A stretch of DNA of 64,000 nt, taken from the NCBI RefSeq assembly GCF_004010195.1, contig NC_057718.1, forward strand, positions 55,150,196-55,214,195, given 5' to 3'. Of the stretch, positions 4,313-49,170 are shown one piece after another (position 1 is the first letter of the stretch; each line of letters begins with the position of its first letter). The position numbers and the translations under genes were made by a program. The notes beneath the pieces are model-generated. The model ran no database searches, had not been told where the DNA came from, and saw only the letters and a list, made by a program, of their open reading frames with translations. Source of the DNA: Chiloscyllium plagiosum. Lineage: Eukaryota.

Positions 4313-4319
4313 CTCATGA

Positions 4320-22599: not shown

Positions 22600-22975
22600 T
22601 CATTCACTGACTTGATCATCTGATTGAGGTCATTTGTAGCTGGACTGCCCAGCCCTTGGATCCAACAGGAAAAATTTATTGAGGAGAAAGTGAGGTCTGC
22701 AGATGCTGGAGATCAGAGCTGAAAATGTGTTGCTGGAAAAGCGCAGCACGTCAGGCAGCATCCAGGGAACAGGAGAATCGATGTTTCGGGCATAAGCCCT
22801 TCTTCAGAAAATTTATTTCCTTGCCACTTGCCTGCAATACCTTATAGGGATACTTCTTATCGTCTTCCTGTCCTCCCACAGAACCGTGACATCTTCACTC
22901 CTGTCCAACTGCACAAAGGGTTTCAGATCCACATCATGGACCTGAAGCCTATTCTCTGCCCTCATTGACAATTTT
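22600..22975 (-). mobile_element. PIF/Harbinger Myb/SANT accessory-gene relic
   Basis: ORF 22813..23031 (...HDVDLKPFVQ...CRQVARK) plus a downstream NDL-like segment resemble Harbinger Myb/SANT proteins; very degenerate. Confidence 0.4.
22681..22807 (-). mobile_element. Short PLE insertion beginning at the hammerhead core
   Basis: TSD aaaatttatt at 22671-22680 and 22808-22817; minus strand starts CTGAAGAAGGGCTTATGCCCGAAACATC. Confidence 0.9.
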
Positions 22976-23399
22976 CCTTGTTCGAGAATTGCAGCAATAC
23001 TGTTTTCCTGCATTATTCTGTAATTCAGCATCCTTTTAAAAAAAGAAAGGCTGCCTCTAAGAGAAGGTTGATTGCACTATATGGTTTTAGGACACAATGT
23101 TAATCAGTAATATGGCAGTTGCTTGATGCAACAATTCAATCAGGTAATGAGATGGCTGCACCAAAACATGTTACCAACTCATTTGGCACAGTAAGGGCAT
23201 GGAAAAGCTGCAGATCAGGCATTGCATTTTTTAAAGGGACAAGTAAATGTAGGTTTCAAAAAAATGAATTATTACAGCAGCGCAGAGAGAATATAGGGCA
23301 ATATGATTAGTTTTGGGTGCTCTACGAAATGCCAATATAAACACAGCAAACTGACTAGCCTCAATCTGGATTATAATGTCATCTCAAAAAATTGAGACT

Positions 23400-23960
23400 T
23401 TCTTCTTCGCAGCCATTGTCTCAGGACCAAGAGTGATTTGCTTCCACTCTGATTCAGTGTTTTGACATGGCTCAGAGCTCTGTGTATTCCCAAGCAGTGT
23501 TTCAATGTGTTTAGTGCCTTCCATATAAACTTAGTTTTTTGTTAAGTCACAGGCCAGAAACTACTGAGTTGGTAGGGATGATTGAACTCCTCAGGTTTAC
23601 TTTCCTATATTATTTCTTTAGTCTTGCTGGGTGTCTACTGTAGTAACCAGTAGAGCAGGAGCTTTGGAAGGCTGGTGTCAGGCATATGAACAACATGCAC
23701 TAAGTTAAAGAGCTGGTTTTGAGTGATTAGCATCTACATGATGAGCATGGTGGCTTAGGAAAGAATGTTGCTGTTAGATTGTCTTTGATGGTCCATATTT
23801 TCCAGGATCTCACCGTTGATTTTAAATATTGTTGGAGTTGTGCTGTGAGAAGTCATGAAAGAGGATTTTAGCTTTCCAGTTGTTCAATAAAAGGCCATTT
23901 TCCCATTTGCTTCAGAGTAGAAGTTGATAATGACCTGGAACTCAATTTCAGACTAAGTGG
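23400..23960 (-). mobile_element. RTE LINE 3' fragment
   Basis: Minus strand reads NQLFNLVHVVHMPDTSLPKLL, like the RTE motif QLRWAGHVVRMPDxRLPK. Confidence 0.65.
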
Positions 23961-25908
23961 AGACCCAGGCATAATCTGCACACTGGAGCTCAGTCTGACT
24001 TTAACATGACTTTTATTTAGGATTGAAGGTGATGTAGTTTAACAGCTTTCTTCTGTTCTGTAAAATATATCCACACTTCTGGGTAGTTTGATGAGCTGAC
24101 ATACAGTTTTGCATCAAGGAAGATTGAGTTCATGGAGACAATACAATAATGAATGGACAGAATTAAGCCAAACATATGCACAAAATAAGTTAAAGAGCAA
24201 TCAGTAGACATGATTGGAAAGAAATAAAAGTGAGGAATCCTCAATATAGAATTATAAATTAAGTAGACAAAGAGCTTTAAGAAGTCGTATATGTATTTGT
24301 TTCCATATTCAGGCAGTGTAGAAAACAGTGCTAGGAATGAGCCATCTTTACAAGTTCAAAACATGTGGAAGATTCGCTTTACAAACAGCATATCATTTCA
24401 TACAGTTTACAATTTTTAACATTTTTCAACTGGCAAATTCATTGTTTTTGCCAAATTTAAAGAGGCCTACAGGGATTTTTTTCAGCTTGCAATACAATTC
24501 TACTCATTCATCGATGAACAAAGTCAGGTAGCATCTTAAAATAAATTTACTTCCCAGTAGGCATTGAATAAGCTCAGAAGCCTTGCCTATTCAAAAATAG
24601 AGGCTAGTCAGGCATTAACTGGAAACAATGACATCATTTCCTTTACATCACTGTTTATACTCGGTTGTTTACATTTTGAAAGATCAAATCTCATCGTGTT
24701 CTAAGGCTGCTGTGATACATTATCTCAGGACTGGATACCAGGATGTTTGAGAGACTCTTCCCCCAAAACGATCAGGCTTTTTTATTTACTACTCATCAAA
24801 TATGTTTTAAGGTTTATAATTATATGTATTCCATCCACTAATAATAGATTAAATTAGATTAAATATTATAAGCTTTTATCTTTTGCGATCAATAATAAAA
24901 GTAATTTGTTACAAATAACAGATATACTTCAAGGACATTTACCCACTATAAAATTTAAAAAGACATATTTAAAAGGCCTAAATTCTAGTGAAGAGCTGTG
25001 GCCAGAAATGTTAACTTGTCTGTTCTCTGCACAGGAGCTAGCTGGATTGGTAATGTTAGGTTTGATTTGTTTCATACATAAGGTATTGCTCATTTATCAG
25101 TAAAACAAATGTAAGTGAGGCAATTTACATGCATAACAGAGCTTACTGAAGCACTGTAAGAATATTCTTAATCAGTGGGTGAGGGAACTCAGAAAGAGAA
25201 GACAATATTGCATTTACAACACTCAAATTTAACATTCCAAATTTTAAAATGCAGGCTATGGTCAGAAAATTTAAATCCCCATGGTTACAATTTAAGCCTT
25301 AACACTAATCTCTTTTATGACAGCTTACAGTTGTACATCGCCTCCATTTTATTTTGTGGCAGCCTGTAACATTTTCCTATAAGATTTCTTTTCCCTTTTC
25401 GATCTTTGAGGTTCACCCAAAGACAGTCTGTCAGTTTCCTGTTCTTACCTCCCTATAACACATAAATAAGCTGATGATTTACTTTTTTCTCCACCAAACT
25501 CCTGACCACTAGTTCCGGCTCTGATTTGACAGTTTATACTTTCCTCTTCATTTTGATATTTCAAACATTGTGTCTCATTTTAGTTCCGTTTAGTTCACTA
25601 ATTTCTAAAATAGCTGAAGAGAATAGCAGATTATCATATTTTAAATTGTTGGAAGAATTCTTGTCATGACTATTATTTTATGAACAATGTTCATCATATA
25701 AGAAAATCATTAATGAAAAGAGCCCTTAAAACATTGGAAATATCATTAATCATAAAAATGCTATTATTTTCCTGCAAACATGGCACTATGGTTTAATGCT
25801 AAAGCGCTGTCCAGTAAACAAGCCAAGAGTACAAGTCTTCAGCAGTGCCTTTGTTCCAACCAAGCCTTTCATCAAAGCTGACTGTGGACAGTCCTGCTCA
25901 ATTTACAG

Positions 25909-26360
25909 GCAGCAGTGGCTCGGTGGTTAGCACTACAGCTTCACAGCACCAGGGACCAAGGTTTGATTCCAGCCTTCGAGAGTGTGGTGCTGGAAAAGCT
26001 CGACAGGTCAGACAGCATCCAAGGAGCAAAAGAATCGACATTTCGTGCATAAGCACTTCATCAGGAATGCAGATGAAGGACTTATACCCGAAATGTCGGT
26101 TCTCCTGCTCCTTGGATACTGCCTGACCTGCTTGTTTTTCCAGCACCACACCCTCAACTCTGATCTCCAGCATCTGTAGTCCTTACTTTCTCCTAGTTGA
26201 TTCCAACTTTGGATGACTGTCTGCATAGAGTTTGCATGTTCTCCTATTTCTGCTGGGTGCTCTGGTTTCCTCCCACAGTCAAAAGATGTGCAGGTTAGGT
26301 GGATTAGCCTAGTAAATAGTCAGTGCATACTCAATGAGCCAAATAGCTTCCTTCCGAACT
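25909..26360 (+). mobile_element. HE1-like SINE interrupted by a fold-back PLE
   Basis: Head to ~25978, V-domain resumes at ~26197. Confidence 0.85.
25979..26196. mobile_element. Inverted (fold-back) PLE terminal insertion
   Basis: Inverted arms meeting at the hammerhead region; degenerate TSD ttgattccagcctt / ttgattccaacttt. Confidence 0.85.
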
Positions 26361-26964
26361 GTAGAGATTATAAGTTTCTAACATCTTTAAAATATGGCTG
26401 AAGGGCCTGTACTGTGCTGTTCTGTTCTATGTCTATGTCTATAATAGGAATGAGACTGGCTAAGAATTTTCTACTTTATATCAGAAGCTTGGATTAAATA
26501 TTTCAAAGTGATAATCAGATATGCTTACTAGCCATTTCTGACCCTTCATCAATCTAATTATTTATTCAATTAAAATGTCTTTCTACTGCTTGAAAATATA
26601 TTTTCCAATTGTCATGTCTAGCATTCTGTTTTGCTATAGATGGTAATATAACTGGCAATAAAGTGGACATGGTCAGCATGACCATTTTGACACAAGGGAT
26701 TAAAAATTCTGTAAGGATCAAAATGCAAGAATAAAACTTCTTGTCATATGGACAGTAAACCTTAAAAGATGATATTATGACAAGTAATCAAAGGTTTTGC
26801 CAAAGAAGACAGTCTTTGAGATGAATAGTTCTCAGGGCTAAAAAGATCAACAAGTATTGGGAGAAAGCAGGAACAGGTTACTGCGTTCAATAATCAATCA
26901 TTTTAAATGGCCAAGTAGGCTCAAAGAGCTGAATGGCTAACTCCTGCTATTTTTTTCTATATTT

Positions 26965-28790
26965 TAAAGTAAGTCTTAAAGTAGGAAAAAAGATGCAGGG
27001 GCAGAAAGCTATAGGTTGGGAATGCCATGGCCTAGAAGATTGAGGACACAACCACCAACTGTGTTGCAATTTGCTCAAAGGGCTAGAATTTAAAAAAATA
27101 TCTATTGGAGGATTTTGAAGCTGAACAAGATTACAAAGACAGAGGTGGCAAGGCCTTGGAGGAATTTAAGACAGAGATGAGAATTTTAAAGTGGAACATT
27201 TCTTGACCAGGAGCTGGTTGTTGGTCAGTGAGTACGAAAGTGATAAGTTCGCATGACTTGGCGCAAGTAGAGTCAAGCAGCAGTTTTGCATTACCACAGA
27301 TTTAAGAAGGGGAGAATGTGGAAGGCTGATCAGGACCACATTAGAATATAAACAAATTAGAGATAACAAGTGTATGGTTGAGGGCTTTAGTAAGCAGATG
27401 GACTGAGACATGAACGGAACCAAGGAGTTTCCATTATAAATGTGGAGATAGATATTTTAGCGATAATGTAAATATATCATTGGAAGCTCATCTTGTGGTT
27501 AAATAAGTGGACATCATTTGGTTCAACATCAGACAGTTCCAGGGCCAGGGATGGAGTTGGTAATTAGGAAGGAGTTTGTGGTGGGTACCAAAGACAATAG
27601 CTTAAATTTACCCTTTATTTATTTAATCACAGAAACATTTTGTCCATCCATTTCTGAATAAGCAGTCTTACACGTTAAATACAGTGGAAGAGTTGAGAGA
27701 GGTGCTGGTGAATAGAGCTGGATGTCACAAGAGTATATGTGAAAACTAATGCTGTGCCTTCAAATGATATTGCTGAAGGGCAGCATGCAACTCAGAAAAA
27801 GGATTGTATCAAAAATAGAACTTTGGAGGACACCAGAGGCTATGATGCAGGAGGGGGGGCAATAGCCAAAGCAGGCTATATGCTGGCTTCAATTAGATAG
27901 ATATAAATAAAACCAAGTGAGTGGCAACTACCTCTGAGCCAGGAAACCCAGGTTCAAGTCCCACCTCCTCCATTGTTGTGTAACAATATATCTGATTAGA
28001 GGAAAGAAAAATGTGAGTTACACAATGATAGATAGACATTGGAGGAAAATGGTGTAGTAAATCATTATAAAGGTTGAAGGCAGGTTGAGAAGGATGAGGA
28101 AGAAGAGATTATCTTTCTCTCAGTCTCACAGGATGCCAATCATTACTTTGATAAGACATCTTTCAGTGGTGGGATTGGTCTTGCATCCTGACTGAATGAA
28201 TTCAAACATGGAGCTCCCAGAAAGATGGAAAAAGATTGAAGGGTGAAAACAGATACAGAACTTTAGGAAGAAACACAGAAAAAGACAGTGATTTGTAAGG
28301 TCAAATGGATCAAGGGTTCTTTTGGAATAGGGTAATGACAGCATTTTTGAAGAAGAGAGGGGCAGTACAGGGGAGACAGAAGACAGGGGAGCATTAACAA
28401 GATTAAATAACATGGGGACCAGGAAGGGATGCTGATGAGCAGGTATTTAATTTGAAGAGGATCAAGGGAGCAAGACGTGGGTCCCATGAAGAAATTGAGA
28501 AGCGCAAGAAGGGAAATAGGAGAGGGAGATGAGTGTAGTGTGAGGATGGGGAGTGAGGGAGAACATGACAGGATACTTGAGAGGAGGTGTAAACTGGTGG
28601 GCCATGGGAAAGGGGAAAACAATAGCAACAGTTGATCAGATGGTTTCAATTTTGATGGCAAAAGAAGTCCATAAGCGTCTCTTACATTATTGGAGGTGAG
28701 TGTGGAAGAGACAAGGAAGAGATGGTTTGCAGTAAAGAAGCTGGAGATTATACCTGTAGCCCAAGATGTTCCTGAAAATAGTGAATAGTT
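26965..28790 (-). mobile_element. L2 LINE ORF2 relic
   Basis: PTSCSLDPLQIKYL...LVNAPLSS...KRTLDPFDLTN...QSGC...TERCLIKV, L2 RT-entry motifs. Confidence 0.8.
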
Positions 28791-29199
28791 TGGTATAGAG
28801 TCATAGAATTGTACAACATGGAAACAGACCCCTTAGTCCAACTCGTCCATGCTGATCACATATCCTGAATTAATCTAGTCCCATTTGCCAGCACTTGGCC
28901 CATATCCCTCTAAACTCTTCCTATTCATGTACGTGCCTAGATGTCTTTCAAATGTTGTATTATACCAGCCTCCACCACTTCTGGTAGCTCATTCCATACA
29001 CACACCATCCTCTGCATAAAAATGTTGCTCCTTAGGATCCTTTTAAATCTTTTCCCTCTCACCTTAAACCTATGCCGTCTTGTTTTGGACTCCCCAGTCC
29101 TGGGGAAAAGATATTGACTATTCACCCTATCCATGCCCCTCATGATTTTATAAACCTCTGTAAGGTCACCCTGAGCCTGCAATTCTCCAGGGAAAATAG

Positions 29200-29398
29200 G
29201 AGAAAGTGAGGTCTGCAGATGCTGGAGATCAAAGTTGAAACTTTATTGCTGGAACAGCACAGCAGGTCAGGCAGCATCCAGGGAACAGGAGATTCGACGT
29301 TTCGGGCACAGGCCCTTCTTCAGGCCCGAAACGTCGAATCTCCTGTTCCCTGGATGCTGCCTGACCTGCTGTGCTGTTCCAGCAATAAAGTTTCAACT
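29200..29398. mobile_element. Fold-back PLE insertion with perfect 75-bp inverted repeat
   Basis: Arms 29233-29307 and 29324-29398; 15-bp TSD ctccagggaaaatag at 29185-29199 and 29397-29411. Confidence 0.95.
29291..29324 (-). ncRNA. Minimal type I hammerhead ribozyme core (PLE-borne)
   Basis: Minus strand: CUGAAGA-A-GGGC-CUGU-GCCC-GAAAC-GUC-GAAUC; intact core, stem II, palindromic ACGU stem III. Confidence 0.75.
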
Positions 29399-29989
29399 CC
29401 AGGGAAAATAGCCCTAGCCTTTCAGCCTCTCCTTTTAGCTCACTCTCCAATCCCGGTAACATCCTTATAATGTTTTTCTGAACCCTTCCAAGTTCAAAAA
29501 CATCTTTCTTATAGCAGAGAGACCAGAATTGTGCGCAATATTCCAAAAGTGCCCTAACCAATGTCCTATACAGCTGCAATAAGACAGCACAACTCAATGC
29601 ACTGACCAGTGAAGGCAAGTGTACCAAATGCCTTCTTCACCACCCTGTCTACCTGTGATTCCACTTTCAATGAACCATGAACCTACACCCCAAGGTCTCT
29701 TTGTTTAACAACACTCCCTTGGCACTAAAGCAGAATCCAATAAGGTTTTAATTTGGTCCAGCAGATCTGGCAATCAAAATGTGTCACCTGCTAAATGGAG
29801 CTATATCAACGGAATAGTCCAGGTGAGAGTGAGTAATAGTTTTAGTAGGGACTGTAGTATCAAAGGTGTAAGTGAGGGCATGGTTGAACAAATCAGTAAG
29901 TGCTCAAATGATATGGTGAACCAATATTAGAGTTGGGATTTTTAAAGAGTTCTCCTCCATTCCCAGAACCCTCCAAGATATCTGTACTA

Positions 29990-30250
29990 ACATTTCCAGC
30001 AATCCTGATTTAATTTGCTCCAACAATGGTTGTCATGCCTTCAACTACTAAGCCCAAAGCTTTGGCACATTCTCCCTCAACCTCCATTCCACCTCTCTTT
30101 TCTCCTTTAAGCTGATCCTCAAAACTTACCTCTTTGACAAAGCTTTTGGCTATCGGTACTACATTGCCTTATGCGATTTGGTGTCATATGTTATCGACAA
30201 CACTCCGGTTTCAATGCTCCATCTTGGGATTTTACTTTACATTAAAGGTT
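29990..30250 (+). mobile_element. L2 LINE 3' end
   Basis: Homologous to 13950-14230. Confidence 0.65.
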
Positions 30251-31409
30251 GAAATCATGGAGGATGAGACTTATCTCCATTTATAAACTCAAAGATGATT
30301 AATGTTATTTTTCCAAAAACTTGACCACTCTCGAGTCTGCATGAATCAAGAAAGCAAAGATTTTATGCAATGCGAGAGAGAAGATCTTGATTACTCAGAG
30401 TACTTCTCAATAATAGTTTACTGCACATACTTATAATTATCTAATTCACGAAGGCCCTTGTTATCCCAAACTTCAGCCTCTGATCTGCTGACTTCCATAG
30501 TGTCTCAACTGTGATGTTTGGCCTTCAGTTCCCCTCATCTTGCATCGCTCTTTGGGAAGAGTAATAAATTAATTCTTGAATCACTTGCTACTTGAAACAA
30601 CATATTTTCTACCTTTAGTTTTGGCAAAAATTGACTTCTTTTCTAATCAGACCTTTGTATTTTAGGACTAAATTTCTGCAAGTATGTTTGTGCTTTCTCA
30701 AAGATAGGTGAGCTGGTTTTGTAAAATGCTTTCAAGAAATGTTTACAAATGTAGTTAAAGGGACATGCATCTCTAATTATTACCAGTTTCATTATTTCCA
30801 TGATGTTGGAATTTCAAACATTTTTGCTTCTTAAAGTTTATTTTATTTCTTTTTTGCCCTACAACTCTTAAGTCACAGAAAATGTGGAATTTGTTAATTT
30901 ACCAAATGAGGATCATAAACAGCCTCAATTAAACGCGTTAACTATGTAAACGACCTAAACCCGAAGAAGTAAACCTGAAATTCTGTAGCTCAAATCTTCT
31001 GTTCCGAATCAGAATCCGTACTTCTGACCAAGATCAAACTAAACGTTGCCCCACTTTAGAGAAGTTTCCCATGTGAACCTTCGGGCTAGGAGCCTTCGCA
31101 GGCGAAGCTGTACACCCCAATCCAGGAATCTGTACAGGCAAAGATTAATTATTTTGGAGCATTACACGTGAGAAAATGCCTACAAAAACATAACTACTTG
31201 CAAATAACTACTGTGTTTTGGAACCATAAGCAATATAAACACAAATGTCCAATTTTTTAAAAAACTCACTTAAAAAAACTCTCCCATGGGAACAACTTGT
31301 GATGCTCCAAAAGGTTACTTTCAAAAATTGAATAAGGAATCTCCTTACAATAGTTGTGGTCCACTGGTGTATGTATTTATCTAATAATTCTACACGAAGG
31401 TTACAGTAT

Positions 31410-31600
31410 TGGAAGCCATTCTTCGTGATTTTGAATATTTCTATCAAATCTCCTTCGAACCTTCGCTTGATACAAAAGCCTCAGCTGCTCCAATCCTTCT
31501 CTGTAACTGAAGTCCTGCTTCGGAGACCATTCTTACAAATCTTTTCTGCAGCTTCTCTGTAATGACTTCCTAAACCGTGGTACCCAGAATTGGTTACGAT
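31410..31600 (-). mobile_element. Old CR1 fragment
   Basis: IEIFKITK on the minus strand; gtggtacccagaattgg corresponds to the CR1 QFW motif. Confidence 0.65.
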
Positions 31601-31649
31601 ACTTCATTAAATTATCTGGCTTTCAACCTCTCTGCGCCTATTGATATCG

Positions 31650-37739: not shown

Positions 37740-38180
37740 ATACATATAGCAGGAGTAGGCCATTCAAGCCTGCTCTGCCATTTATTAATATGATTTGTTT
37801 GTGATCTCAACATGAGCCTCTTGTCTGTCTGCACCACTCCCTCAAACACACACACAGTCCTTGATTCCCTTGCCTATCAAAAATCTACATATCTCAGCCT
37901 TAAATAAATTTAATGATGCAACTTGTGGAAGGGAATTCCACAGACTAACCATCCACTGATATTAAACAGATCTCCTCATCTCACTCTTAAAAGGAATAAT
38001 GGAGACCTCATTTATAAGCTGTGGCCCGTAGTTCTAGTTTCTCATAAAGGGAGTGACATCTCAGTAAGACCATCTCTCGCTCTTCCAAATTCCAATGTTT
38101 AAAGAAGCGACCTATACAACATTCATAAGATAAGCCCTTTGACCCAGGAATAAGTCAAGCGATCATTTTCTGAACATTTC
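37740..38180 (-). mobile_element. CR1 3' fragment
   Basis: gcaggagtaggccattcaagcctgctctgccatt tail. Confidence 0.7.
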
Positions 38181-41139
38181 TAATGTTGTCTTCAAGCATG
38201 AAATTTTATAAAAATGTTGCAATCTGCACAATTTTCCCATGAAAAGCAATCAAAACATTGGTTGGCCTGAAGCTACTTTTAGTACTAGATTTTATGGTCA
38301 AAAAAGGCCATTCTGAGTTGTTTGAACAGAACGATTCATTGTGCATTATGTGATATGACATTTGTGACCTTTATAAAATAGTTTATCATTCAGCTTATGG
38401 TGACCAATACCACTGGAAAAGGTGCCAGTAATTGATCTGAAAAATGGTATAGCAGTACATAAAAATGCCCCATCCATTAAAATGCATATTAATCTTAAAA
38501 TGCTGATGACTTTCAAATTGCAACCAAAAACTAACTAGCATGCTCCTCTCATCTACAAAAATTGACTAAGTTAGCTGGGTGACATGAGGCTGCATTTGAT
38601 TTTCGCAATTGTCTTTGAAATGTACATTAGCAAAACTTAAACTTTGCTTTTACTATATATTCAGGATTTAAAAATATGTGTCACATATTTTTAAATTCTT
38701 ACAGACATTTGAAATAAGTGAATCAACTTTATATATGAATTAGCATTTGTTTGACCAGCTTAAGTTCTGAATCTTGGTTTATTCATCTCCTTTGTTTCAT
38801 AGAGTTATGATGTAACTCCTTCAAAATTGGTCACATGTTTCAGTTGGAAATATGAAAGTTTATAAACAGTGAAGTGGGGGTTTTCAGGAGATGATGAGAG
38901 ATTTCCAGAGCAGGATGAAGTTTAAAATGCAACCTAAATTCATGTTCATTCATTTGCATTTCTTTTGTATCCAAAGTTACCTGAAGTGGCCTATTTCCAC
39001 ACTGTAGGGAATCTAACCTAATCTAATCAAGAATATTTGAGTAATGTACTCTTAATTAATTAATATTATCATGTTGAGATTTCAGAGAATATTAAGAACT
39101 TTAAATATTTTTTTAACATTATTGCTTTCCATTTTTACATGGTCTTGTTGCATGTTCTGTCATCTAAGACTCGTAGCTGTATTTTAATTTCCCCCATAGC
39201 TATTTTAGTATTGTATCAGGAAAATATGGCACCCATTTTATCCTTCTGATGAGCAAAAGTTCCTCTTGTGAACTTGAAATTTCATCTGTTGTTTAGCACA
39301 CTTCTGTTTTGTTTAATGATTTAGTCAACCTAGATTGTCATTACTTCGAAGGAATTGTGTAAGTTGATCATTCAGGATCACCTCCACAAAGTCGTTGGTC
39401 TGTTGTTATTTTACAGATAGTCCAGTTCATTCCTCATTAATCACATTAGTCTTTCTTCAACTTCTTGTAAAATAATTTATCTGTACTAGGCTATATCTGC
39501 TTTGGCACCCTTTAAAATAGGCCTTTCTAATTTACTGTTTTCCAATGAATGTCATTGTTTCATAAATCTTGAAAGTGTCAACACTTTGGTATACATGCTG
39601 TTTCACCCTGGAGAAATATTCAAGTACTTGCAGCTTCCATTTTTCCATTTATAGTGGTCTTAACTTAAGATCTGGTAGATTTTTTGTGATAGTCTTCTGT
39701 TTAGGACTAATCATTCAATAAAATTGTATCATCTTGTGCTTATCTTTAAATTCCTTTGAAACTTTTAATGCTCTTGTGTCTGTTCCAAAAAATATGTCTT
39801 ATTGGGGGATGATTTTATTAAATCCATTGGATAAATACCTTTTTGTCAAGCTGGCAAGAATTAGCGTGAAAAAGAATAAACTATTCTGTATATACTGTAA
39901 ATAGTTTACGGTTTGATTTGATCTGAGAAAATTCTTATGAAGTCTGGAGTTCAAGTCAGAGTGCTTCTGAATAAATTACCTATAGCCATTAGGATGCCTT
40001 TTAAAAAGCATGCTATGAATTGTGGTGTGCTATTGGAAGCTGTAGGTTTTAATTCTGAGGAACGTAAGAGTTTGTGTGCTTCTGTAACTGACCTGTGTTC
40101 AGTACTCTAACCAGCACTTTGCTTAAAAACCGTGTATGCAGATTTTTGGTTAAGTTTTGGCTACAATTCATATGTATGTGTATAGAGGAGATAACCTTCA
40201 TATTTGGGACATAATATGCAAGCCTTCATTAAACAGTGGTGTAACAAAGCTTTTAATGGAAAAAAAAATTCTACATGAATAACTGCTGCTATTATAAATT
40301 TGTATCATAATATTTAATCACTAAATTTGTTTCCATGATTAATCTATAACCACTGACACTTCACCTTGTATTAACTAAAACTAAAACAGTCTCTAAACAC
40401 AACAGGTTGGAAAGGCAAAATCTATCATATTGGTGAGGTTTTTCTTTGGTTCAAGTGAATATAAAACTAATGTTTTGCTTATTTTTTGCTATACTCTATC
40501 CAATTTCTTGGAATAGCACTGAAATGTGCATACCTCAGACAAACCATTTATAGGTATAAGACATTAATAATAGTGTGAAAGCTCTTTATATGCCTATTTA
40601 ACAGTTTTTCTGTTTAAAAACTGCCTAAGCCGCTGTCAGTTCGAGAATGGAAGTGCATAATTCACCGACATTTCTGAATCTGGTACAGTGATGGCCTGTA
40701 AATAAATGAATTATTTTGGAGTTAGATATAATGTCCTAATTAAAATTATACAGTTAGCTTATTATTAAAATATATTAATCTTACTGAATACAGCTGGACA
40801 GCGGTATAGTACTTTCTGTTCAGTTGGAAAGTGTGATCATGTTTTGTTTCAGTTTAAATAATAGCTTCAATTTGTCGTGAAAAAGTATGCTACATTTAAA
40901 ACTTAAAATAATCTTCACATCAGAGAGAATTTATTTTGTTTTATACATTAATATGCATTTAAAGTAAGTAATTATGCATCCTGTTAGAAATGTAGCGTCA
41001 CCGTGTGAAGTGATCCATAGCTTCACTTGTTAATATTGTGAATGCAGCAAAAAGCTGGGTTTTGATATTCTGACATCTATATGATGAAATACCACACATG
41101 CATAATACTTTCCTTTTTACTCCTCACCAAGAAACAGTT

Positions 41140-41915
41140 TGGATATTGACCTGAAAGATATTTTCCTAATCAACCTGTTCAGATGTTATGACATGCCTCT
41201 GGAGCAGATGGGACTTGAAACTCAGGCCTCCTGGCTCAGAGGTAGAGATACTATCATGTACCACAACAGCTCTTGAGATTGACCTCAAAGAATTAAATTG
41301 GGAATGCTTGAAACCTGATTTGACTCATTGAAACATCTACTAATTTAGTAAACCTGAATTAGGTTCCCCTCAAACTGATGAATGACTAAATTTAACTCTT
41401 ACGAAGCATAAAGCTAGGCTACAAATACCTGTTGTGGCACTGTGGTAGTGTCCCTTCCTCTGGTCTAGAAAGCCTGGATTCAAATCCCACCTGCTCCAGA
41501 TGTGTGTCATAACATGTTTGAGAAGGTTGATGAAATATTTATAAATATAGTTCTGACTGTAGTTATGGCAGAGTAGTTGAACAATCATTTGCACTACTCT
41601 TGTGACAATGGTAGCCGTACTCTGAGTCAGGAGGCCTACTTTTAAGTCCTACCTGCTCCTGAGATTTATAATTGCTGATTTGGAAAATATCTACGCAATT
41701 AATACAATTAAGCCTCTATTTTAGGAGCTTTTGTGGTATAGTGGCAGTGGTAAGCCATGAGGCTGTGGTTCAAGTCCCATCTGCTCCAGCGGTGTGCAAT
41801 AACAACATCTCTGAACAGAATAGTTCAGAAAATACACAAAGCTAGGCTATAAAAAGTGCTCTTGTGATAGAACCCCTTCCATCTGGGTCAGAAGGAGTTC
41901 AAGTCTCATCTACTT
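41140..41915. repeat. Cluster of short (~100-150 bp) tRNA-derived SINE-like units
   Basis: Repeated gtggtagtg...ttcaa(a/g)tcccac/tctgctccag...aacat core at ~41431, ~41600, ~41730 and ~41860 (+), and 41175-41270 (-); also at ~27920 and ~46455. Confidence 0.7.
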
Positions 41916-41917
41916 TA

Positions 41918-42478
41918 CATGTTGAGGTTATACAGGATGCTGGTGAGGCATTTTCTGGAATACAATATGTAATTCTGGTTGCCCTCTTATAGGAAGGATA
42001 CAATTAAATTGGAGAGGATTCAGAAAAGATTTACTAGGATATTGCTGGGAATGGAAGGTTTGAGATATAAAAATAGACTGGAAAGGCTGGGACTTTTTTC
42101 ACTGGAGCGTGGGAGGTTGATGGGTGACCTTATGGAGGTTTATCAAATCTTTAGGGGCATAGATAAGGAGAATGACAAGGGTCTTTTCCCTAAGGTGTAG
42201 TAATTCAAAACTAGGGGACATTTTTAAGGTGAGAGGAGAAAGATCTAAAAAGGACATGAGAAGCAACTTTTCTCCACAGAGTGGTTTGTGTGTGGACTAA
42301 ACTGCCAGAGGAAGTGGTAGATGTAGGTACAGTTACAATGTTTAAAAGACATCTGGAGAAGTACATGAACAGGAAAGTTTGAGGGATGTGAGCCAAGTGC
42401 AGGCAGATGGGACTAGTTTAGTTTGGGAACATGGTCGGCTTGGACTGAATGGTCCGTTTCCATGCTGTATGACTCTCT
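41918..42478 (+). mobile_element. HER1-like CR1 3' part
   Basis: PSYRKDTIKLERIQKRFTRILLGMEGL...LGLFSLE...GDLMEVYQI. Confidence 0.9.
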
Positions 42479-42594
42479 GTATATCTGAACAGGATGATTA
42501 AAAATATCTAGAGCTAGTCTGCAAGTTGAGAACCAATCATAATTTAAGCATCTGTATTGTCCAGTTTTAATGTTATTGGACTCATGTAAATGTA

Positions 42595-43870
42595 ATCTTG
42601 AGCATGGTCCCCAGCTATGCCTATCTCTTCGTTGGCTACGTGGAACAGTCTACCTTCCATACCTTTTCCTCTGCTACTTTGATGACTGCATCGGCGCCAC
42701 CTCATGCTCCTATAACGAGGTTGAGCAGTTCATCAATTTCACCAACACGTTCTACCCTGACTTTAAATTCACATGGACCATCTCTGACACCTTTCTCCCC
42801 TTCCTAGGCCTCTCCATCTCCATCAATGACGACCGATTCAACACCAAAGTTTTTTTTTACAAACCCCAATGACTCCCACAGCTACCTGGATTACATCTCC
42901 TCCTACCCTACCTCCTGCAAACATGCTAACCAGTATTCCCAATTCCTCACCCTTTTTCGTATCTGCTCCCAGGAGGACCAATTCCACCACAGAACACACC
43001 AATGGCCTCCTTCTTTAAAGACTATAAGTTCCCCTCACACGTGGTTGAAGATGCCGTCCAATGCATCTCATCCACGTCCCACACCTCCACCCTCAAACCC
43101 CCACCCCTCCAACCGCAACAAGGCCAGATTTCCCTGGTCCTCACCTTCCACCACACCAACCTCTGCATAAATTGCATCAACCGCCGACATTTCTACCACC
43201 TACAAACTGACCTCACTACCAGGGATATGTTTCTCTCCCCACCCCTATCTGTTTTCTGCAAAGACTGTTCCCTCCATGTACTTCGACAAATGTCTCCTTT
43301 ACATTGGAGAGACTGGACGCCTTCTCGCAGAGCGCTTCAGTGGAACATCTCTGTGATAACCACACCAATCAACTCCACTGCCCCGTGGCCAAACATTTCA
43401 ACTCTCCCTACCACTCTGCCAAGGACATTCAGGTCCTTGGCCGCCTCCACTGCCACTCCCTCACCACCCGATGCCTGGACGAAGAACACTTCATCTTCCG
43501 CCTCGGAATCCTTCAACCCCAGGCAAAAATGTGAACTTCACTAGTTTCCTCATTTCCCCTCCCCCCACCTTAGCAGTTCCAACCTTCCAGCTCTGCACCA
43601 TCCTCATGACCTGTCCCACCTGTCAATCTTTCTTCCCACCTATCCGCTCCACCCTCCTCTCCGACCTATTACCTTTACCCTTTCCTCCATCCACTTATTT
43701 CACTCCCAGCTACGTTCTCCCCAGCCGCATGACCTTCCATTTATCTCTCCATCCCCGAGACTTCCAGCCTCATTCCTGGTGAAGGGCTCCTGTCTGAAAC
43801 TTGGATTTTCCTGCTTCTCGGAAACTGCCTGAGCTGTGCATTTCCAGCATCACTCTAATCTCCAGCATCT
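42595..43870 (+). mobile_element. Penelope-like element, family 1 (RT C-terminus, GIY-YIG, pLTR with mutated hammerhead)
   Basis: SMVPSYAYLFVGYVEQ, YFDDCIG, FTWTIS...PFL, HSYLDYISS, PVAKHFNSPYHS...EEHFIFRLGILQP; ctggtgaagggctcctgtctgaaac at ~43776. Confidence 0.9.
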
Positions 43871-44259
43871 GATTATTTCACCTCGTGAATTATTCCACAG
43901 AGTTACTGAACAAAATGGATGGTAAAGGTTACAGGTGTGATTCTGTGGTGTCGTAATGATGAGTAAATTAAGGAGGTTCACACATAATGCTATTGAAATA
44001 GAGCAGAGGTGACTGACTGTTTGTTTATTACAGCTCTTCACTGGTTCTTGTTACAGGCAAACTTGCTGCCATGTTTCTATGTTCCAATGGTTGTTGCACT
44101 TCAAAAAGTAAATTATTGACTCATGGTGTGAAAGGTGCTAAAGGTGCTCTTTAGTTACGTAGACTCTTATTCTGAAATAATCGCCAATAGTTTTGTCATT
44201 AGCTGTAAGTTAACATTTTATTTTCTTTCCTTAATGAAATGTAACTGTCAGAAGAACAG

Positions 44260-44899
44260 TGTTACCGACCAGACCAAATCCCCTCAAAATATATCAAGGA
44301 GATAGCCCAGACCCCAACTTTTATTTTATTTAAAGGCAATTATAAGGTGCTGTGTTTCAGATGTGATCCAGTTGGTCCCCTATTTGGCTTTAAGCAAAAC
44401 ACTTTATTCTTACAATAATTAAAAATTAAACCAAAGAAGAATTGGCATAACTTTAACTCTGTTGAAATATTAATAAAATAATGTATTATTTAACTTCCAA
44501 TATAATAGCATCACATCAACACACTCCTGACAAAGACAAATTCAGCAAAACAGTTTCAATCTTGTGTTAACTTCAGTATAGGAACAAAGAACACTGAAAG
44601 AAACAATTCTGGAACAAAGAACGTAATCGAGCTTTTTGCTGCAGCAGAGAGAGTTTTGTATCTATCGGCTTCATCAGCCTCAACTTCAACTTCAATTGAA
44701 AACAAACCAAAACCCTGGTCTGTGTCAGCATGATTCCATCCACTCATGCTTCTTTTGTCTAATTTTTTAAAAAAGCACTCAGAGCTCAAAGCTGTTTAGC
44801 CACTGCTTCTGAAGCAGACATTCCACTGCAGCTGACAACATCTCTCTGCAAACAAAATGGGACAGAACAAATCCCTCTTAAAGGCAGAATACCATCACA
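44260..44899. mobile_element. Solo LTR (Gypsy-like) with 4-bp TSD
   Basis: TGT...ACA ends; acag at 44256-44259 and 44900-44903; homologous to 21778-22385. Confidence 0.85.
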
Positions 44900-45029
44900 A
44901 CAGTGACAAAAGTAGCCCCCTCAAACCTAACTGTGGACCTAAAATATGATTTGAAATATATACTTAAGTGATTTGCTTTCAATTGAGTTACTTTTTGAGT
45001 CAATAACCTGAAACTTTTATTGTTTGTAG

Positions 45030-45146
45030 ATCTTTTCAGAGTACAGGCAGCCGCAGATTGTGAATGGATTCTGTTCTTGAGTCCACTTCCAAGTCGATTT
45101 GTATGCAAGTTGGAACACAATGCAGAATAATATAAAATAGCTGTTT
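45030..45146 (+). other. Candidate internal (5' UTR) exon
   Basis: TAAC at 45004, cttttattgtttgtag acceptor, GTAAGT donor at 45147; all three frames closed. Confidence 0.3.
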
Positions 45147-45464
45147 GTAAGTACAGGAACTGTTTGTATATTAGATCTTGAAAATTACAATCTTGTATGG
45201 GATTGCTTTTGTAAGTATGAACACTCCTAAATTAGGAACCCCCGTAAATCATTTGAGGTTTAAAGGTCGTTTTTATGTTTTTAATCTTCATCCCATTTTA
45301 TTCCCATCATTGAAGGTGCCAAGTCACACTGGGTAATGGTTCCATGATGACAAAAGTTCTTGAGTAATATTACAGGAACATTGGTCAATTTCCTTTTTTT
45401 AAACCGTGGGTACCAGGGTCATACTTGGGAATCATGTCAGTCAACATACCTTTTTTTTTATTTA

Positions 45465-45620
45465 CACTTCCATGGTATGTGGGCATTGTCAGCTCAGCCA
45501 GCAATTTATGCCCTAATTGTCCTGGAAGGTGAGCCTTTGAACTGTTAATGGTCATGTGTTGTAGGTACAGAACTGTTAGGAAGGGAGTTCCAGAATTTTG
45601 ACATTTACCTATGAAGATAT
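45465..45620 (-). mobile_element. CR1/L2-group LINE 3' tail
   Basis: Homologous to 6570-6740. Confidence 0.65.
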
Positions 45621-45859
45621 TGAAGAATCTAGCATTTAATGAAAAACACATTCTACATAAAATTTTAACTTTGATAAATATGTTGATTTGGCGCAATTTA
45701 ATTTTTTTTTAAGGTACTTTTCTTTTTGGCATCTGCCAGCCTTGTATCAATGCACTCTGATGGAAATAACTCTGTCCTAACTAGCAGCTTCTAATTTGAA
45801 TTTTTACTACATCTGCAAGTGTCATTAATTGAAATGATTTGTAAGTCTGTCTAGAACAT

Positions 45860-46320
45860 GATGGCTTAGTGGTGTTATCAGTGGATTGTTAATCCAGAGA
45901 CCCAGACAATATTCTGGGACCTTGGTCGATCCCACCATGGCAATTTACTGAAAAATGTGCAATTAAGAGTCTAATGATGATCATGAATCCATTGTCGATT
46001 GTCAAAAAAAAAACCATCTGGTTCACTGGCTTTTAGGAGAAAGTGAGGTCTGCAGATGCTGGAGATCAGAGCTGAAAACGTGTTGCTGGAAAAGTGCAGC
46101 AGGTCAGGCAGCATCCAAAGAGCAGGAGAATCAATGTTTCGGGCATAAGCCCTTCACTTGGCTTTTAGGCAAGGAAACTGCCATCCTTAACTGGTCTGGC
46201 CTATGTGACTCCAGACCCAAAGCAATGGCATTGACTCAAAACTGACCTCTGGGCAATTAGTGATTGACAGTAAATGCTGGCTGAGCCAGTAATGTCCTTA
46301 TCCTGTCAATGAATTTTTTA
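45860..46320 (+). mobile_element. SacSINE1-like Deu-domain SINE, interrupted by a PLE fragment
   Basis: tggcttagtgg A-box, central ccatctggttcact...tggtctggcctatgtgactccagacc domain, LINE-type tail ggcaattag...aaatgctggc...atgaat. Confidence 0.8.
46038..46152 (-). mobile_element. Short PLE insertion
   Basis: TSD ttcactggcttttagg / ttcacttggcttttagg; 5' end falls inside the hammerhead core. Confidence 0.88.
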
Positions 46321-46329
46321 AAAAAATGT

Positions 46330-46445
46330 AATGGCCTAGCGGCATTACTACTAGTCTATTAGTCTATTAATTCAGAAACTGAGATTTCCTGGGGACCCAG
46401 GTTCAAATACCACCAAGGCAGATGGTGGAATTTGAATTCAATAAA
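46330..46445 (+). mobile_element. Deu-SINE 5' (tRNA-like) fragment
   Basis: tggcctagcgg...ggttcaaataccaccaaggcagatggtggaatttgaattc. Confidence 0.7.
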
Positions 46446-46755
46446 AAAGTGTTGTAGAGCTGTAGTGTCCTAACTTCCAAACTCGTGATCCATGTTCAAG
46501 TCTTATCTGCTCTAGAGGTGTGTAATAATGTCTCTGAACAGGTTGGTAAGAAAATATCGAAATGCAGACAGTAACATATAAATATGAAAGTTTTTTAGGG
46601 TTACAGTATCTGTAAATTAAAATACATTTCAAATAAATTGAGTTGCTAGGAAATATTAAATTCATTTGAAATAAAATCTTACCTGGATGCAGATGGCTGA
46701 AATTACAGTGCCACCTAATGTTGAGAAAACTGAAATACATGCTTGTGCAAATCAA

Positions 46756-46856
46756 AGTTAAAACTCTCACACAACCAACTGTTGGACTGTAACCTGGCAT
46801 TGTGTGACTTTTAACTTTTTGTACACTCCAGTCCAACACCAGCAGCTCCAAATCAC
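46756..46856. mobile_element. Tiny fold-back insertion of PLE family 2 terminus
   Basis: 11-bp TSD gtgcaaatcaa at 46745-46755 and 46857-46867; matches 17120-17160 with a short inverted 5' copy. Confidence 0.8.
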
Positions 46857-46965
46857 GTGCAAATCAACATCTAAATGTGACAAAGTTGTATTATAGGAAG
46901 AAAAATTGAGAAAACTTGCCGACTAGAAAAAGGACATATTATGTTATGAACAGACATATCATTGA

Positions 46966-47086
46966 GGCGAAAGTGAGGACTGCAGATGCTGGAGATTAGA
47001 GTGGTGCTGGAAAAACACAGCAGGTTAGGCAGCATCTGAGGAGCAGGAAAATCGACGTTTCAGGCAGGAGCCCTTCATCAGGAATG
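46966..47086 (-). mobile_element. Short PLE insertion
   Basis: TSD tcattga at 46959-46965 and 47087-47093. Confidence 0.88.
47050..47086 (-). ncRNA. Minimal type I hammerhead ribozyme core
   Basis: Minus strand: CAUUC-CUGAUGA-A-GGGC-UCCU-GCCU-GAAAC-GUC-GAUU. Confidence 0.7.
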
Positions 47087-48709
47087 TCATTGATTCTGGT
47101 GTCATTCCTATCATTATCTTTGTATTCTCCTGCCTTCAGAATCTCTGATTTGTCATTTGAAATAGCACTGCAGCTTAATTACGGGTTTAAAAGATAATGT
47201 ATATACCTACAGTTGTACAGAGAGAAATGAACTAAGTATTAGTTCAGCAAGTGTCCCTTGATGTTGTTCTTGGTGAGTCGGAATATTGGATATTCTCTAA
47301 CAATAGAGGGTTTATGCCATGTAGCACACAATGAATTGAGGGCCAGTAGTTTATTGGCATTGAATAAATTTCTAATGTTCTGGATGTAATTGAGATTGAA
47401 TTCTGCGATTGTCTGTAATTATAATCCTGTGGTTTTATTGTGAATACAAAAATAAACGTTTTAAATAATGTATTCCTTCACCTGCAGACATCTCTTAAAA
47501 GCAGAGGACATATAAAGATGTGTTCATGATGACGGAAATTATGTATAATGTTTAACTTTATTGGTGAGTCTGGTGTGAGGGAGTGGTTTTGAATGCAACA
47601 GCATTACAGTTGTAGCTTGAGATTGAACAGTTTTGCAATGGAATTGCTGAACTTTGGCAACACCACAGAAGAATCTTGGTATTTGGCACATTTGGGATTT
47701 TGTTCAGTGGGGACATCTGGAATCTGTTGAAAATGAAAGTGGGGAAGGACAAAAGTCTAACATTGGTATGAAATTTGCACCTGGCAGAGCTGACTTATAA
47801 ACTGCAATAGTTCTCTACTAATAATTAATTAATTGTACAGTTTCATAATTGATTCCTGGAGAAAAACTGCTCTGTTGAGGTAAAGATTTTACAGCTACAC
47901 AAACTTTGTTCTGTTTCTGCCACTTTGTAGCAGTGACTAGAAACTTGGCTTGTATGATAAATGTATTTTTGTTTTGAACCAGACAATCTCTTATCTCAGA
48001 AAAGATAGGAACAGGTGGAAGATGCAACAAACATCATAAAGAGCCCGTTCTTCCAATCACTGGTAAATATTCCCAAAACCAGCTCTGAAAACATTATTTA
48101 TTTGATGAATATTTTTCAGCACGAAGCCCTAACATTGAAGTGATCGATGTTGCTGTCATGTTAAAGTTGCATGAAAAAAACCTGACTATTTGCAACTTCT
48201 GACCTTTCAGTTAACATAAAATTAGTTTTACGGTTACTCACAGCCAAATCTTATGTGAGCAGTGATTAGTTTATTCTTCTTTCCCTTCATCTTTCTCTTT
48301 GTCACTGCTTAACTTGTTCTCTGACTTTAAAGCAAGGCTAACAGCTTTCATTTACTAGTTGAAAATCTGCTCAAAGTCGCTGTTCAGTATGCTTAAACCA
48401 TTACAAAAACACACACCGAAATACTGTAATTGTTTTGCATTATGGTAAAAAAATGTTGTCAACGACTAAAATATTGAACAAAGTATACAATCAACATGAT
48501 CATATTTGAAAATAATATTCTCTCATTTCCTCACAAAACTATAACATCTTTTTGAAAATATAGTAACAATGAATTTTATCTGAATTTTTATTAAAATTTG
48601 GCCTCCAGCTTTTTTCAAAACTATTTCAACATACAACTAAACCGAAACTGTTGGAACCTCAAAAGGAACCTAATTCAAATAGATGCATTCGGATATATTG
48701 TGGGATAAT

Positions 48710-49170
48710 TGATGAGGGGAATTTCATTGAAACGTACAGAATACTAAGAGGGAGAAAGTGAAGATTGTAGATGCTGGAAAGTCAGAGTGGAAAAACACTG
48801 GTACTGGAAAAACACAGCAGGTCAGGCAGTATCTGAGGAGCAGAAGAATCAATGTTTTGGGTATAAAACCTTCATCAGGATGAAGAGCTTATAACTGAAA
48901 TGCCAACAGTCCTGCTCCTTGGAAGCTGCCAGACATGCTGTGCTTTTCCAGCACCATCCTTTTTGATTTAGAATTCTGAGAGGTCTGGGTAAAGTGAATG
49001 TCTCAACTGGTAGCAGAGACTAGTATCTGCAGGCCCGGCCTTTGAGCCCTTAGTAAGGGGATCAAAAGTTATGGAGAGAAGGCAGGAGAATGGGGCTAAG
49101 AAACATATCAGCAGTAATGGATCGAATGGCAGACCAGAGCAGGTCTCATTCTACTCTTAATATCTTGTGA
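48710..49170 (+). mobile_element. CR1 3' fragment containing a fold-back PLE (~48751-48968)
   Basis: Inverted PLE arms around ccttcatcaggatgaag; degenerate TSD agaatactaagagg / agaattctgagagg. Confidence 0.8.

What the first reader, a model, noticed from the sequence alone, without database searches (positions are those of the whole stretch)
22681..48968. Short TSD-flanked PLE copies whose 5' ends or fold-back points cluster at a hammerhead ribozyme
Seen: six independent ~115-220 bp insertions (22681, 25979, 29200, 46038, 46966, 48751), each with its own 7-16 bp TSD and the same 3' end (...ctt(t)ct/gcc). Each starts at, or inverts within, CUGANGA-A-GGGC-N4-GCCC-GAAAC-GUC. Known: PLE termini carry minimal type I hammerheads whose loopless palindromic stem III requires dimerisation. 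Inference: the ribozyme hairpin sets where cDNA synthesis stops or switches template, so this tail may behave as a non-autonomous, retrozyme-like mini-element mobilised by the family-1 PLE (42595-43870).
Basis: partly seen in the sequence, partly recalled or inferred. Interest (0 to 1): 0.72.

Follow-up and report, generated by a model that had tools for sequence, protein, structure and literature searches.

The report
Penelope end pieces stop before hammerhead
The short inserts are the last 115-130 bases of a Penelope-like jumping gene in a shark-like genome; they begin at the front edge of a small hammerhead ribozyme motif rather than at its cut site, likely because the copied RNA begins there, and they are a known kind of element, not a new retrozyme.

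Summary
Observation confirmed. All 6 listed inserts are real, with target-site duplications of 10-15 bp (7-15 exact; chance p<=0.015 each). Of 10 family insertions in the window, 7 have their 5' end within -5..+6 of the first C of CUGANGA (best-case truncation null P about 1e-7). Of 10 short-arm ends, 0 lie at the cut site (+28).

Reverse transcriptase copied through the whole weak hairpin, so stalling at it fits poorly. The minis fall into three length variants, two with long counterparts. They are not in tandem, and only 2 of 10 arms keep a complete motif, so they are solo pLTR ends of a Neptune-type Penelope-like element, not retrozymes. The 42595-43871 copy is dead.

Best mechanism (0.45, inferred): priming inside the pLTR and run-off at a template 5' end just before helix I. 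Palindromes would arise by priming from both nicked strands; at 25979 neither arm can be a fold-back of the other.

Against: reads laid on the long copy showed no step at the motif (a biased test), and two other PLE families here fold back elsewhere. The scan noted this before in other windows of this genome.

The parts
22681..22807 (-). Solo pLTR end piece, 5' edge at core index 0; TSD 22671-22680 and 22808-22817
25978..26069 (-). Inverted, tail-less arm of palindromic insert, index -5 to +86; complete min-HHR motif with a double change in helix II; left TSD 25963-25976
26070..26196 (+). Main, tail-bearing arm of the same insert, index 0 to about +124; right TSD 26197-26210
29200..29324 (-). 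Main, tail-bearing arm of a young palindromic insert, index -1 to +123; left TSD 29185-29199
29324..29396 (+). Inverted, tail-less arm, index +16 to +88, identical to the main arm over 75 of 75 aligned bases; right TSD 29397-29411
46038..46156 (-). Solo pLTR end piece, 5' edge +4..+6 (CUGA lost); TSD 46027-46037 and 46159-46169
46966..47086 (-). Solo pLTR end piece, 5' edge -5..-2, complete min-HHR motif, same length variant as the 43 kb long copy; TSD 46956-46965 and 47084-47093
48751..48880 (-). Main, tail-bearing arm of an old palindromic insert, index -2 to +127; left TSD 48738-48751
48879..48965 (+). Inverted, tail-less arm, index +2 to about +85..92; right TSD 48970-48983
4187..4315 (+).
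1..321 (+). Long copy cut by the window start: 3' UTR, decayed HHR (core at 192) and tail; not truncated at the motif
42595..43871 (+). Dead, 5'-truncated Neptune-type PLE copy: RT C-terminal part, thumb, GIY-YIG remnant (ORF remains about 42601-43540), pyrimidine-rich 3' UTR, mutated HHR (core at 43776), tail lacking the last ~18 nt
52169..52281 (+). Strongly degraded related copy; core remnant placed by eye; 5' extent unclear
24984..25029 (+). Marginal old copy (E 0.005), left out of counts
50180..50895 (.). Contrast: palindromic insert of a second PLE family; its junction lies in the endonuclease-like ORF about 265 nt upstream of its hammerhead-like motif
46755..46856 (+). Contrast: TSD-flanked mini fold-back insert of a third PLE family; its junction is downstream of that family's hammerhead and the motif is absent
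16109..17161 (+). Long copy of the third PLE family: GIY-YIG remnant, CA-rich 3' UTR, CUGAUGA core at about 17082

Best explanation
The inserts are 115-130-base terminal (pLTR) pieces of several subfamilies of a Neptune-type Penelope-like retrotransposon, each with its own target-site duplication and a 5' end at the front edge of the hammerhead motif, likely because the element's reverse transcriptase primes inside the pLTR and runs off a template RNA that would begin just before hammerhead helix I.

Shown here: identity with the PLE end, TSDs, a common 3' end, edges at -5..+6, none at the cut site, and a 34-42-nt tail on one arm only of each palindrome.

Taken from the literature: PLE RT starts at two internal sites that delimit the tail, the enzyme nicks and extends both strands, and uncleaved RNA is the substrate (Frangieh 2024).

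Inferred: (1) the RNA 5' end, either a transcription start or a processed end, lies at about -5/-4; (2) priming at the start sites nearest that end gives a solo pLTR, then 0-11 nt are lost in microhomology joining; (3) palindromes form when both nicked strands are primed, one at the outer and one at the inner start site, both cDNAs run to the same limit, and they are joined head to head. On this view the minis are dead-end by-products of PLE replication, not a separate element.
For: The edge is one-sided: none of the 10 short-arm ends passes -5, two reach it, and the rest tail inward to +6, with one at +16. None is at +28. The whole motif was copied, and it is a weak structure.

Inverted arms end at +86, +88..90 and +85..92 while main arms end at +123..127, matching the 30-40-bp PLE tail between two RT start sites (PMC11167929; PMC8557442).

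At 25979 the tail-less arm reaches -5 and the tail-bearing arm starts at 0, so neither can be a fold-back copy of the other. At 48751 the arms overlap by 2 nt, too tight for a hairpin loop.

Minis occur in three length variants; 46966 shares a 9-12-nt deletion with the long 43 kb copy (88%), and 4187 and 48751 share the long form with the long 1-321 copy. Bases -6..0 fit YYANWYY in the three longer copies (initiator consensus recalled). The Penelope TSS lies in the pLTR (PMC2377424).
Against: No RNA 5' end was mapped. Reads and contigs laid on 42990-43889 showed no depth step at the motif (bins 43740-69 vs 43770-99: 35k/25k, 114k/94k, 236k/192k in three contig runs, 38/42 in the RNA run) and no pile-up of molecule ends, while summed depth 100-250 nt upstream was far higher, so long copies are common. 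That test is biased against short copies, because most short-copy variants are only 69-84% like this reference tail, but it gives no support.

In D. virilis Penelope the TSS lies about 120 nt upstream and it is the intron acceptor that maps at helix I (PMC2377424; PMC4209133). The long copies here also have acceptor-like AG at -10 and -22. The initiator match is weak evidence, since -4..0 are fixed by helix I and the core.

Two other PLE families in the window fold back about 265 nt upstream of, or downstream of, their motifs. n is 10 insertions in one window. A 5-nt deletion after insertion could also explain 25979. The tree of copies had no supported branch.
Confidence: 0.45

Rival explanations
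1. The element's own GIY-YIG endonuclease trims a longer cDNA or double-stranded intermediate at the ATT just upstream of the core (-4..-2), so the RNA is long but the inserted DNA starts at the motif.
For: The anole PLE enzyme prefers 5'-ATT-3' next to its ORF-pLTR junction and cuts both strands (PMC11167929). ATT sits at -4..-2 in the 43 kb, 46966 and 25979-inverted copies, and on the bottom strand in the 1-321 copy. It predicts the same one-sided edge and needs no special RNA.
Against: ATT is common in the flanks and elsewhere, so it gives no reason for this one site. Long copies that keep the site uncut are abundant. It does not by itself explain two full arms.
Confidence: 0.2
2. One reading: the folded ribozyme, possibly as a protein-bound dimer, stalls RT or makes it switch template.
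For: All 3 family palindromes invert within -5..+16. The predicted monomer fold of 46966 is a hairpin from +1 to +28 whose 5' foot coincides with the ends. The 29200 inverted arm starts in the 3' strand of helix II.
Against: RT meets the 3' foot first; 0 of 10 ends lie at +17..+31 and 9 of 10 lie at or upstream of +6. Stability is low (z -0.9 to -1.9; cDNA -2.4 to -4.0 kcal/mol). The junctions at 25979 and 48751 do not fit self-primed fold-back.
Confidence: 0.15
3. RNA processing at a splice acceptor just upstream of helix I (an intron in the 5' UTR, as in Penelope) creates or exposes the template end.
For: In D. virilis Penelope the intron 3' end maps to the 5' end of helix I (PMC4209133). 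Polypyrimidine tracts ending in YAG lie at -10 (43 kb copy) and -22 (1-321 copy).
Against: A spliced template should carry exon 1 into the insert, but TSDs abut the core directly. The AG position differs between variants. No RNA-supported joint was among the 15 joints shown, of 163.
Confidence: 0.1
4. The minis are a separate non-autonomous, retrozyme-like element that is transcribed on its own and remobilised by the PLE protein.
For: 7 of 10 copies are minis of near-constant size and all contain the RT start region. Non-autonomous PLE derivatives exist (PMC8557442; bioRxiv 10.64898/2026.07.22.740005). Sense-strand RNA reads dominate over the motif in one run.
Against: Three length variants, two shared with long copies. 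No tandem units. No circular permutation or start at the cut site. 8 of 10 short arms lack a complete motif, and most have lost the helix I 5' strand. No foreign head sequence.
Confidence: 0.08
5. Ribozyme self-cleavage after GUC makes the template 5' end.
For: The family motif has the min-HHR features.
Against: It predicts inserts starting at +28; 0 of 10 short arms do, and 40-95-nt stubs would have been detected (7 of 7). In the anole PLE, cleavage is not needed and no RNA reads end at the cut site (PMC11167929).
Confidence: 0.02

Closest known systems
Minimal hammerheads (min-HHR) in pLTRs of metazoan PLEs (Cervera and De la Pena 2014, PMC4209133)
   Same: CUGANGA core, one unpaired base before helix II, G10.1-C11.1, no loop III with palindromic 15.2-16.2, short helix I; thousands of solo motifs ascribed to truncated PLEs; opposite-strand pairs 100-700 bp apart.
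   Different: In the text I read there is no statement that truncations cluster at the 5' edge of the motif, and sharks are not named. Helix II here is 4 bp. The opposite-strand motifs here abut each other.
EN+ PLE insertion architecture: 5' truncation, inverted pLTR, 30-40-bp tail, solo pLTRs (Arkhipova 2013, PMC3846280; Craig 2021, PMC8557442)
   Same: TSD of about 8-10 bp, head-to-head inverted pLTR, tail on one end only, solo pLTRs.
   Different: There the inverted pLTR usually flanks a longer ORF-bearing unit, solo pLTRs without TSDs were ascribed to recombination or deletion, and palindromes to self-priming. Here TSD-flanked pLTR-only inserts are the majority, and the 25979 junction argues against self-priming.
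Poseidon PAc of Anolis (Frangieh 2024, PMC11167929)
   Same: Tail length matches two internal RT start sites; uncleaved RNA as template fits the absence of ends at the cut site; both-strand nicking fits two-armed inserts.
   Different: A different clade (Poseidon). In PAc the ORF starts in the motif, whereas here the AUG in the core opens only about 17 codons (read from the sequence). 5' junctions of genomic copies are not discussed in the parts I read.
Non-LTR retrozymes of animals (Cervera and De la Pena 2020, PMC7229834; Li, Clavereau, Pollet 2026, 10.64898/2026.07.22.740005)
   Same: Short, non-coding, type I HHR, related to PLE pLTRs, dispersed monomers exist.
   Different: Retrozymes are tandem units of mostly 150-450 bp with two or more HHRs that yield circular RNA. 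These inserts are single or head to head, colinear with the PLE end, and mostly lack a complete motif.

Membership tests
EN+ Penelope-like element, Neptune type | [quoted passage not shown] | tested here: met
   Window 42604-43658 matches P0001 (E 1e-55) and P0010 (E 8e-59) by tblastn. P0001 has RVT_1 above cut-off. P0010 has GIY-YIG at 21.7 bits, just under the 22.6 cut-off. The window's own fragments gave 0 Pfam hits of 4.
EN+ Penelope-like element, Neptune type | CX2-5CxxC linker between RT and EN | tested here: inconclusive
   Present in homolog P0010; the region is deleted in the window copy.
EN+ Penelope-like element, Neptune type | RT phylogeny within the Neptune clade | not tested
   No reference RT set was fetched; the Neptune label rests on the linker in the homolog.
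EN+ Penelope-like element, Neptune type | HHR in the pLTR, 30-40-bp tail on one end, inverted 5' copy, short TSD | tested here: met
   Tail of about 34-42 nt on one arm in 3 of 3 palindromes; TSDs in 6 of 6 listed copies.
Minimal type I hammerhead (min-HHR) | CUGANGA and GAAA cores, unpaired base, helix II closed by G-C, loopless palindromic helix III, UH cut triplet | tested here: met
   All present in 46966, 29200 main and 25979 inverted (the last with a U-G pair in helix III). Helix II is 75.5% paired with 3 of 4 pairs double-changed, above slid controls but not above shuffles, 62 of 500.
Minimal type I hammerhead (min-HHR) | Helix I of 4-5 bp | tested here: inconclusive
   At most 3 of 4 pairs in any copy; the 5' strand is replaced by flank in most minis.
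Minimal type I hammerhead (min-HHR) | Self-cleavage as a dimer or with protein | not testable with these tools
   The designed double-hammerhead fold of 46966 scores -5.3 against -20.8 kcal/mol for the dimer MFE; no assay.
Non-LTR retrozyme | Head-to-tail tandem units with two or more complete HHRs | tested here: not met
   0 of 7 TRF rows involve this unit; copies are single or head to head.
Non-LTR retrozyme | Monomer bounded by cut sites or circularly permuted | tested here: not met
   0 of 10 short arms start at +28; all are colinear with the PLE end.
Non-LTR retrozyme | Lineage separate from autonomous copies | tested here: inconclusive
   Indel variants group minis with long copies, but the tree had 0 of 9 supported branches.
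Non-LTR retrozyme | Small linear and circular RNAs | not testable with these tools
   Only a poly(A) single-cell run was available.

The most novel reading that the evidence does not exclude
The minimal hammerhead of PLEs works less as a cutter than as an RNA-RNA clamp at the very 5' end of the transcript. Its palindromic helix III and intermolecular helix I pair two template RNAs inside the dimeric PLE protein, both nicked DNA strands are primed at once at the two internal start sites, and both cDNAs run off just past helix I. That one step would explain solo pLTRs, head-to-head palindromes, the one-sided tail and why dimer-only hammerheads are conserved. It predicts palindromes whose arms come from two different source loci; the double change in helix II of only one arm at 25979 is a weak hint.
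Probability: 0.12. Interest if true: 0.8.

Novelty: new member of a known kind. Interest (0 to 1): 0.38.

Why it matters
The elements are ordinary PLE ends. What is useful is the footprint. How PLEs finish their 5' junction, how their palindromes arise and what their hammerheads do are all still open (PMC8557442, PMC11167929). A sharp edge at helix I, no ends at the cut site and junctions such as 25979 turn those questions into simple tests on an assembled genome and in the existing in vitro system. I did not find the clustering in print in six searches of open-access PMC and bioRxiv; older subscription papers, Repbase and Dfam were not seen. The finding also warns annotators that dense solo hammerheads in shark genomes need not be retrozymes or SINEs.

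Tried and rejected
No whole genome is held for this window, so the genome-wide histogram could not be made.

DNA pattern scans for family ends found 0 matches in viral contigs, metagenomes and prokaryote genomes. A protein-guided metagenome scan gave 1 short, distant locus (35% identity) that was not used.

Using spurious translations of the tail as a proxy for breakpoints failed: 0 hits and 2 unrelated repetitive proteins.

The look-up of sequencing runs: no RNA holder listed. The lay on the old long copy could not score most short-copy variants, showed no step and no pile-ups, and its depths are not copy numbers.

Rfam found no hammerhead; its 2 hits were miRNA models on palindromes and are artefacts. 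The tree of 12 arms was unresolved.

Selection against longer copies as the cause was rejected: survivors should spread over about -8..+75, P about 1e-5. Detection bias was rejected. Ribozyme cleavage as the source of the ends was rejected (0 of 10 at +28).

Supplement term searches added nothing on breakpoints; file 1 of PMC4209133, Figure S2 of PMC11167929 and the preprint's supplements were not seen and could bear on novelty.

Full report
Setting. The window is animal DNA of 39.5% GC. The best protein relatives of the long element are from the shark Chiloscyllium punctatum, so I call the genome shark-like. No whole genome is held. Positions below use index 0 for the first C of CUGANGA; a hammerhead would cut after index 27.

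Observation. All six inserts exist and share the 3' end. Their TSDs are 10, 14, 15, 11, 10 and 14 bp, with 0, 2, 0, 0, 1 and 2 mismatches; against 2000 random flank pairs p was <=0.0015 for five and 0.0145 for 46966. The core pattern had 6 matches in the window against 0.00 expected. Rfam gave no hammerhead match. A profile built from nine window copies found 13 arms in 10 insertions at E<1e-7 and one marginal hit that I left out.

Breakpoints. Main-arm 5' edges are 0 (22681), 0 (25979), -1 (29200), +4..+6 (46038), -5..-2 (46966), -2 (48751) and +1..+3 (4187, no significant TSD). Inverted arms start at -5, +16 and +2. The other 3 of 10 insertions are longer or unclear. Leave-one-out planting recovered 7 of 7 stubs of 40, 50, 60, 80 and 95 nt and 5 of 7 of 30 nt, so the lack of shorter copies is not a detection gap. 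The ends lie 22-33 nt upstream of the cut site; 0 of 10 lie at it.

The parent element. [quoted passage not shown] The homolog P0010 has a CX2-5CxxC linker, the Neptune mark in PMC8557442; I did not build an RT tree. The copy starts inside the RT and has frameshifts, stops and a deletion over the linker. Its core and cut triplet are mutated. It represents the family but cannot have mobilised anything.

One family or many. Pairwise alignment shows three length variants. 46966 shares a 9-12-nt deletion with the long 43 kb copy and is 88% identical to it. 4187 and 48751 share the longest form with the long 1-321 copy. 22681, 25979, 29200 and 46038 form the third. So short copies arose in each variant, and two variants have long copies in this window. 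A tree could not confirm this (0 of 9 branches supported).

The ribozyme motif. The family has the min-HHR features described in PMC4209133. Helix II is 75.5% paired with double changes in 3 of 4 pairs, above slid controls but not above shuffles (62 of 500). Only 2 of 10 short arms (46966, 25979 inverted) keep core, helix II, GAAA, helix III, cut triplet and 3 of 4 helix I pairs (the 29200 inverted arm lacks the core altogether). The motif folds weakly, and the active dimer fold is about 15 kcal/mol above the dimer minimum. No tandem array of this unit exists in the window. Retrozyme membership therefore fails on the two features I could test.

Palindromes. In 3 of 3, the inverted arm lacks the last 34-42 nt, the known PLE tail. 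The 29200 arms are identical over 75 of 75 bases. At 25979 the tail-less arm reaches -5 while the tail-bearing arm starts at 0, so neither arm contains all of the other and simple fold-back is excluded unless 5 nt were deleted later. At 48751 the arms overlap by 2 nt, too tight for a loop. Both fit two cDNAs primed on opposite strands and joined at a common limit.

Mechanism. From PMC11167929: PLE RT starts at two internal sites that bound the tail, both DNA strands are nicked and extended, the protein is predicted to be a dimer, and hammerhead cleavage is not needed. I infer that priming at the start sites nearest the RNA 5' end copies only the pLTR and runs off at about -5/-4, with a few bases lost in joining (0.45). 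Earlier scan notes on this genome proposed that the template begins there; before reading them I gave this 25%, so they moved me, and they are not independent evidence.

Evidence against. Laying three contig runs and one RNA run on 42990-43889 at 80% gave no depth step at the motif (35k to 25k, 114k to 94k, 236k to 192k; RNA 38 to 42), no place where many molecules begin or end, and top loose ends elsewhere in the reference. Summed depth at 43530-43679 was 0.4-1.5 million in the first run, so long copies are common. The test is biased, since the reference tail is 69-84% like most short copies, and the tool states that depth is no copy number; it neither supports nor refutes a genome-wide peak. 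In the same window a second family folds back about 265 nt upstream of its motif and a third has a TSD-flanked mini palindrome that lacks the motif, so the rule is not general to all PLEs. In D. virilis Penelope the TSS is 46 nt plus a 75-nt intron upstream, and the acceptor maps at helix I (PMC2377424, PMC4209133).

Comparison and novelty. Solo min-HHRs from truncated PLEs, opposite-strand pairs, inverted pLTRs with palindromic junctions, one-sided tails and TSDs are all described (PMC4209133, PMC3846280, PMC8557442). A 2026 preprint already links retrozymes to pLTRs. I did not find the clustering of 5' ends at helix I in searches. The scan itself noted it in several other windows of this genome: 156 of 266 notes matched 'hammerhead Penelope', and 7 of the 8 shown describe these minis.

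Papers seen. PMC4209133: parts 1-2 of 4 and a term search of one supplement. PMC11167929: parts 1-2 of 4 and a blank supplement term search. 10.64898/2026.07.22.740005: parts 1-3 of 5. Passages only: PMC8557442 (12 of 27 places), PMC3846280 (11 of 11), PMC2377424 (12 of 17), PMC7229834 (12 of 35). The initiator consensus, twin priming as a concept, and the labels HE1, CR1/HER1 and Poseidon-like are recalled and come from no call.

Verdict. A real and statistically strong local pattern in a known kind of element. The retrozyme and hairpin-stall reading is not favoured. Interest 0.38.

Noticed in passing
window 50180-50895: Palindromic insert of a second PLE family (78.5% arms, about 45-nt spacer). 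The junction is in an endonuclease-like ORF and hammerhead-like motifs lie near both outer ends; Rfam mistakes it for a miRNA.
   Followed up: partly
window 46745-46866 and 16109-17161: Third PLE family: a long copy with GIY-YIG remnant, CA-rich UTR and CUGAUGA core, and a mini fold-back insert with a 10-bp TSD that starts downstream of the motif.
   Followed up: partly
window 26046-26056: Helix II of the 25979 inverted arm reads GUGC/GCAC, a compensatory double change absent from the partner arm; could mean two source RNAs or hairpin-templated mutation.
   Followed up: partly
3' junctions of 29200, 46038, 46966, 48751: The TSD begins with 1-4 bases that also fit the element end (CT, CCT, T, CCTC), suggesting short microhomology at priming; not tested statistically.
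   Followed up: no
window 43736-43767 and 150-171: Polypyrimidine tracts ending in CAG lie 10 and 22 nt upstream of the core in the two long copies, like the Penelope 5'-UTR intron acceptor.
   Followed up: partly
window 43740-43829 (run X21): RNA reads over the motif are mostly of the direction that usually means PLE-sense (26-36 vs 3-12), while most upstream bins lean the other way; only 386 reads were laid.
   Followed up: no
window 25915-26309 and 28794-29722: Inserts 25979 and 29200 interrupt older repeats, a tRNA-derived SINE and a CR1-type LINE tail (labels recalled), which give empty-site references elsewhere in the window.
   Followed up: no
window 14158-14333: Exact 87-bp tandem duplication (100% match); a recent duplication or an assembly artefact.
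   Followed up: no
window 55367-58041: Two copies of a 1.15-kb direct repeat with short internal tandem units; not identified.
   Followed up: no
window 41157-41834 and 46494-46558: Several short related repeats in both orientations clustered just upstream of the long PLE copy; not identified.
   Followed up: no
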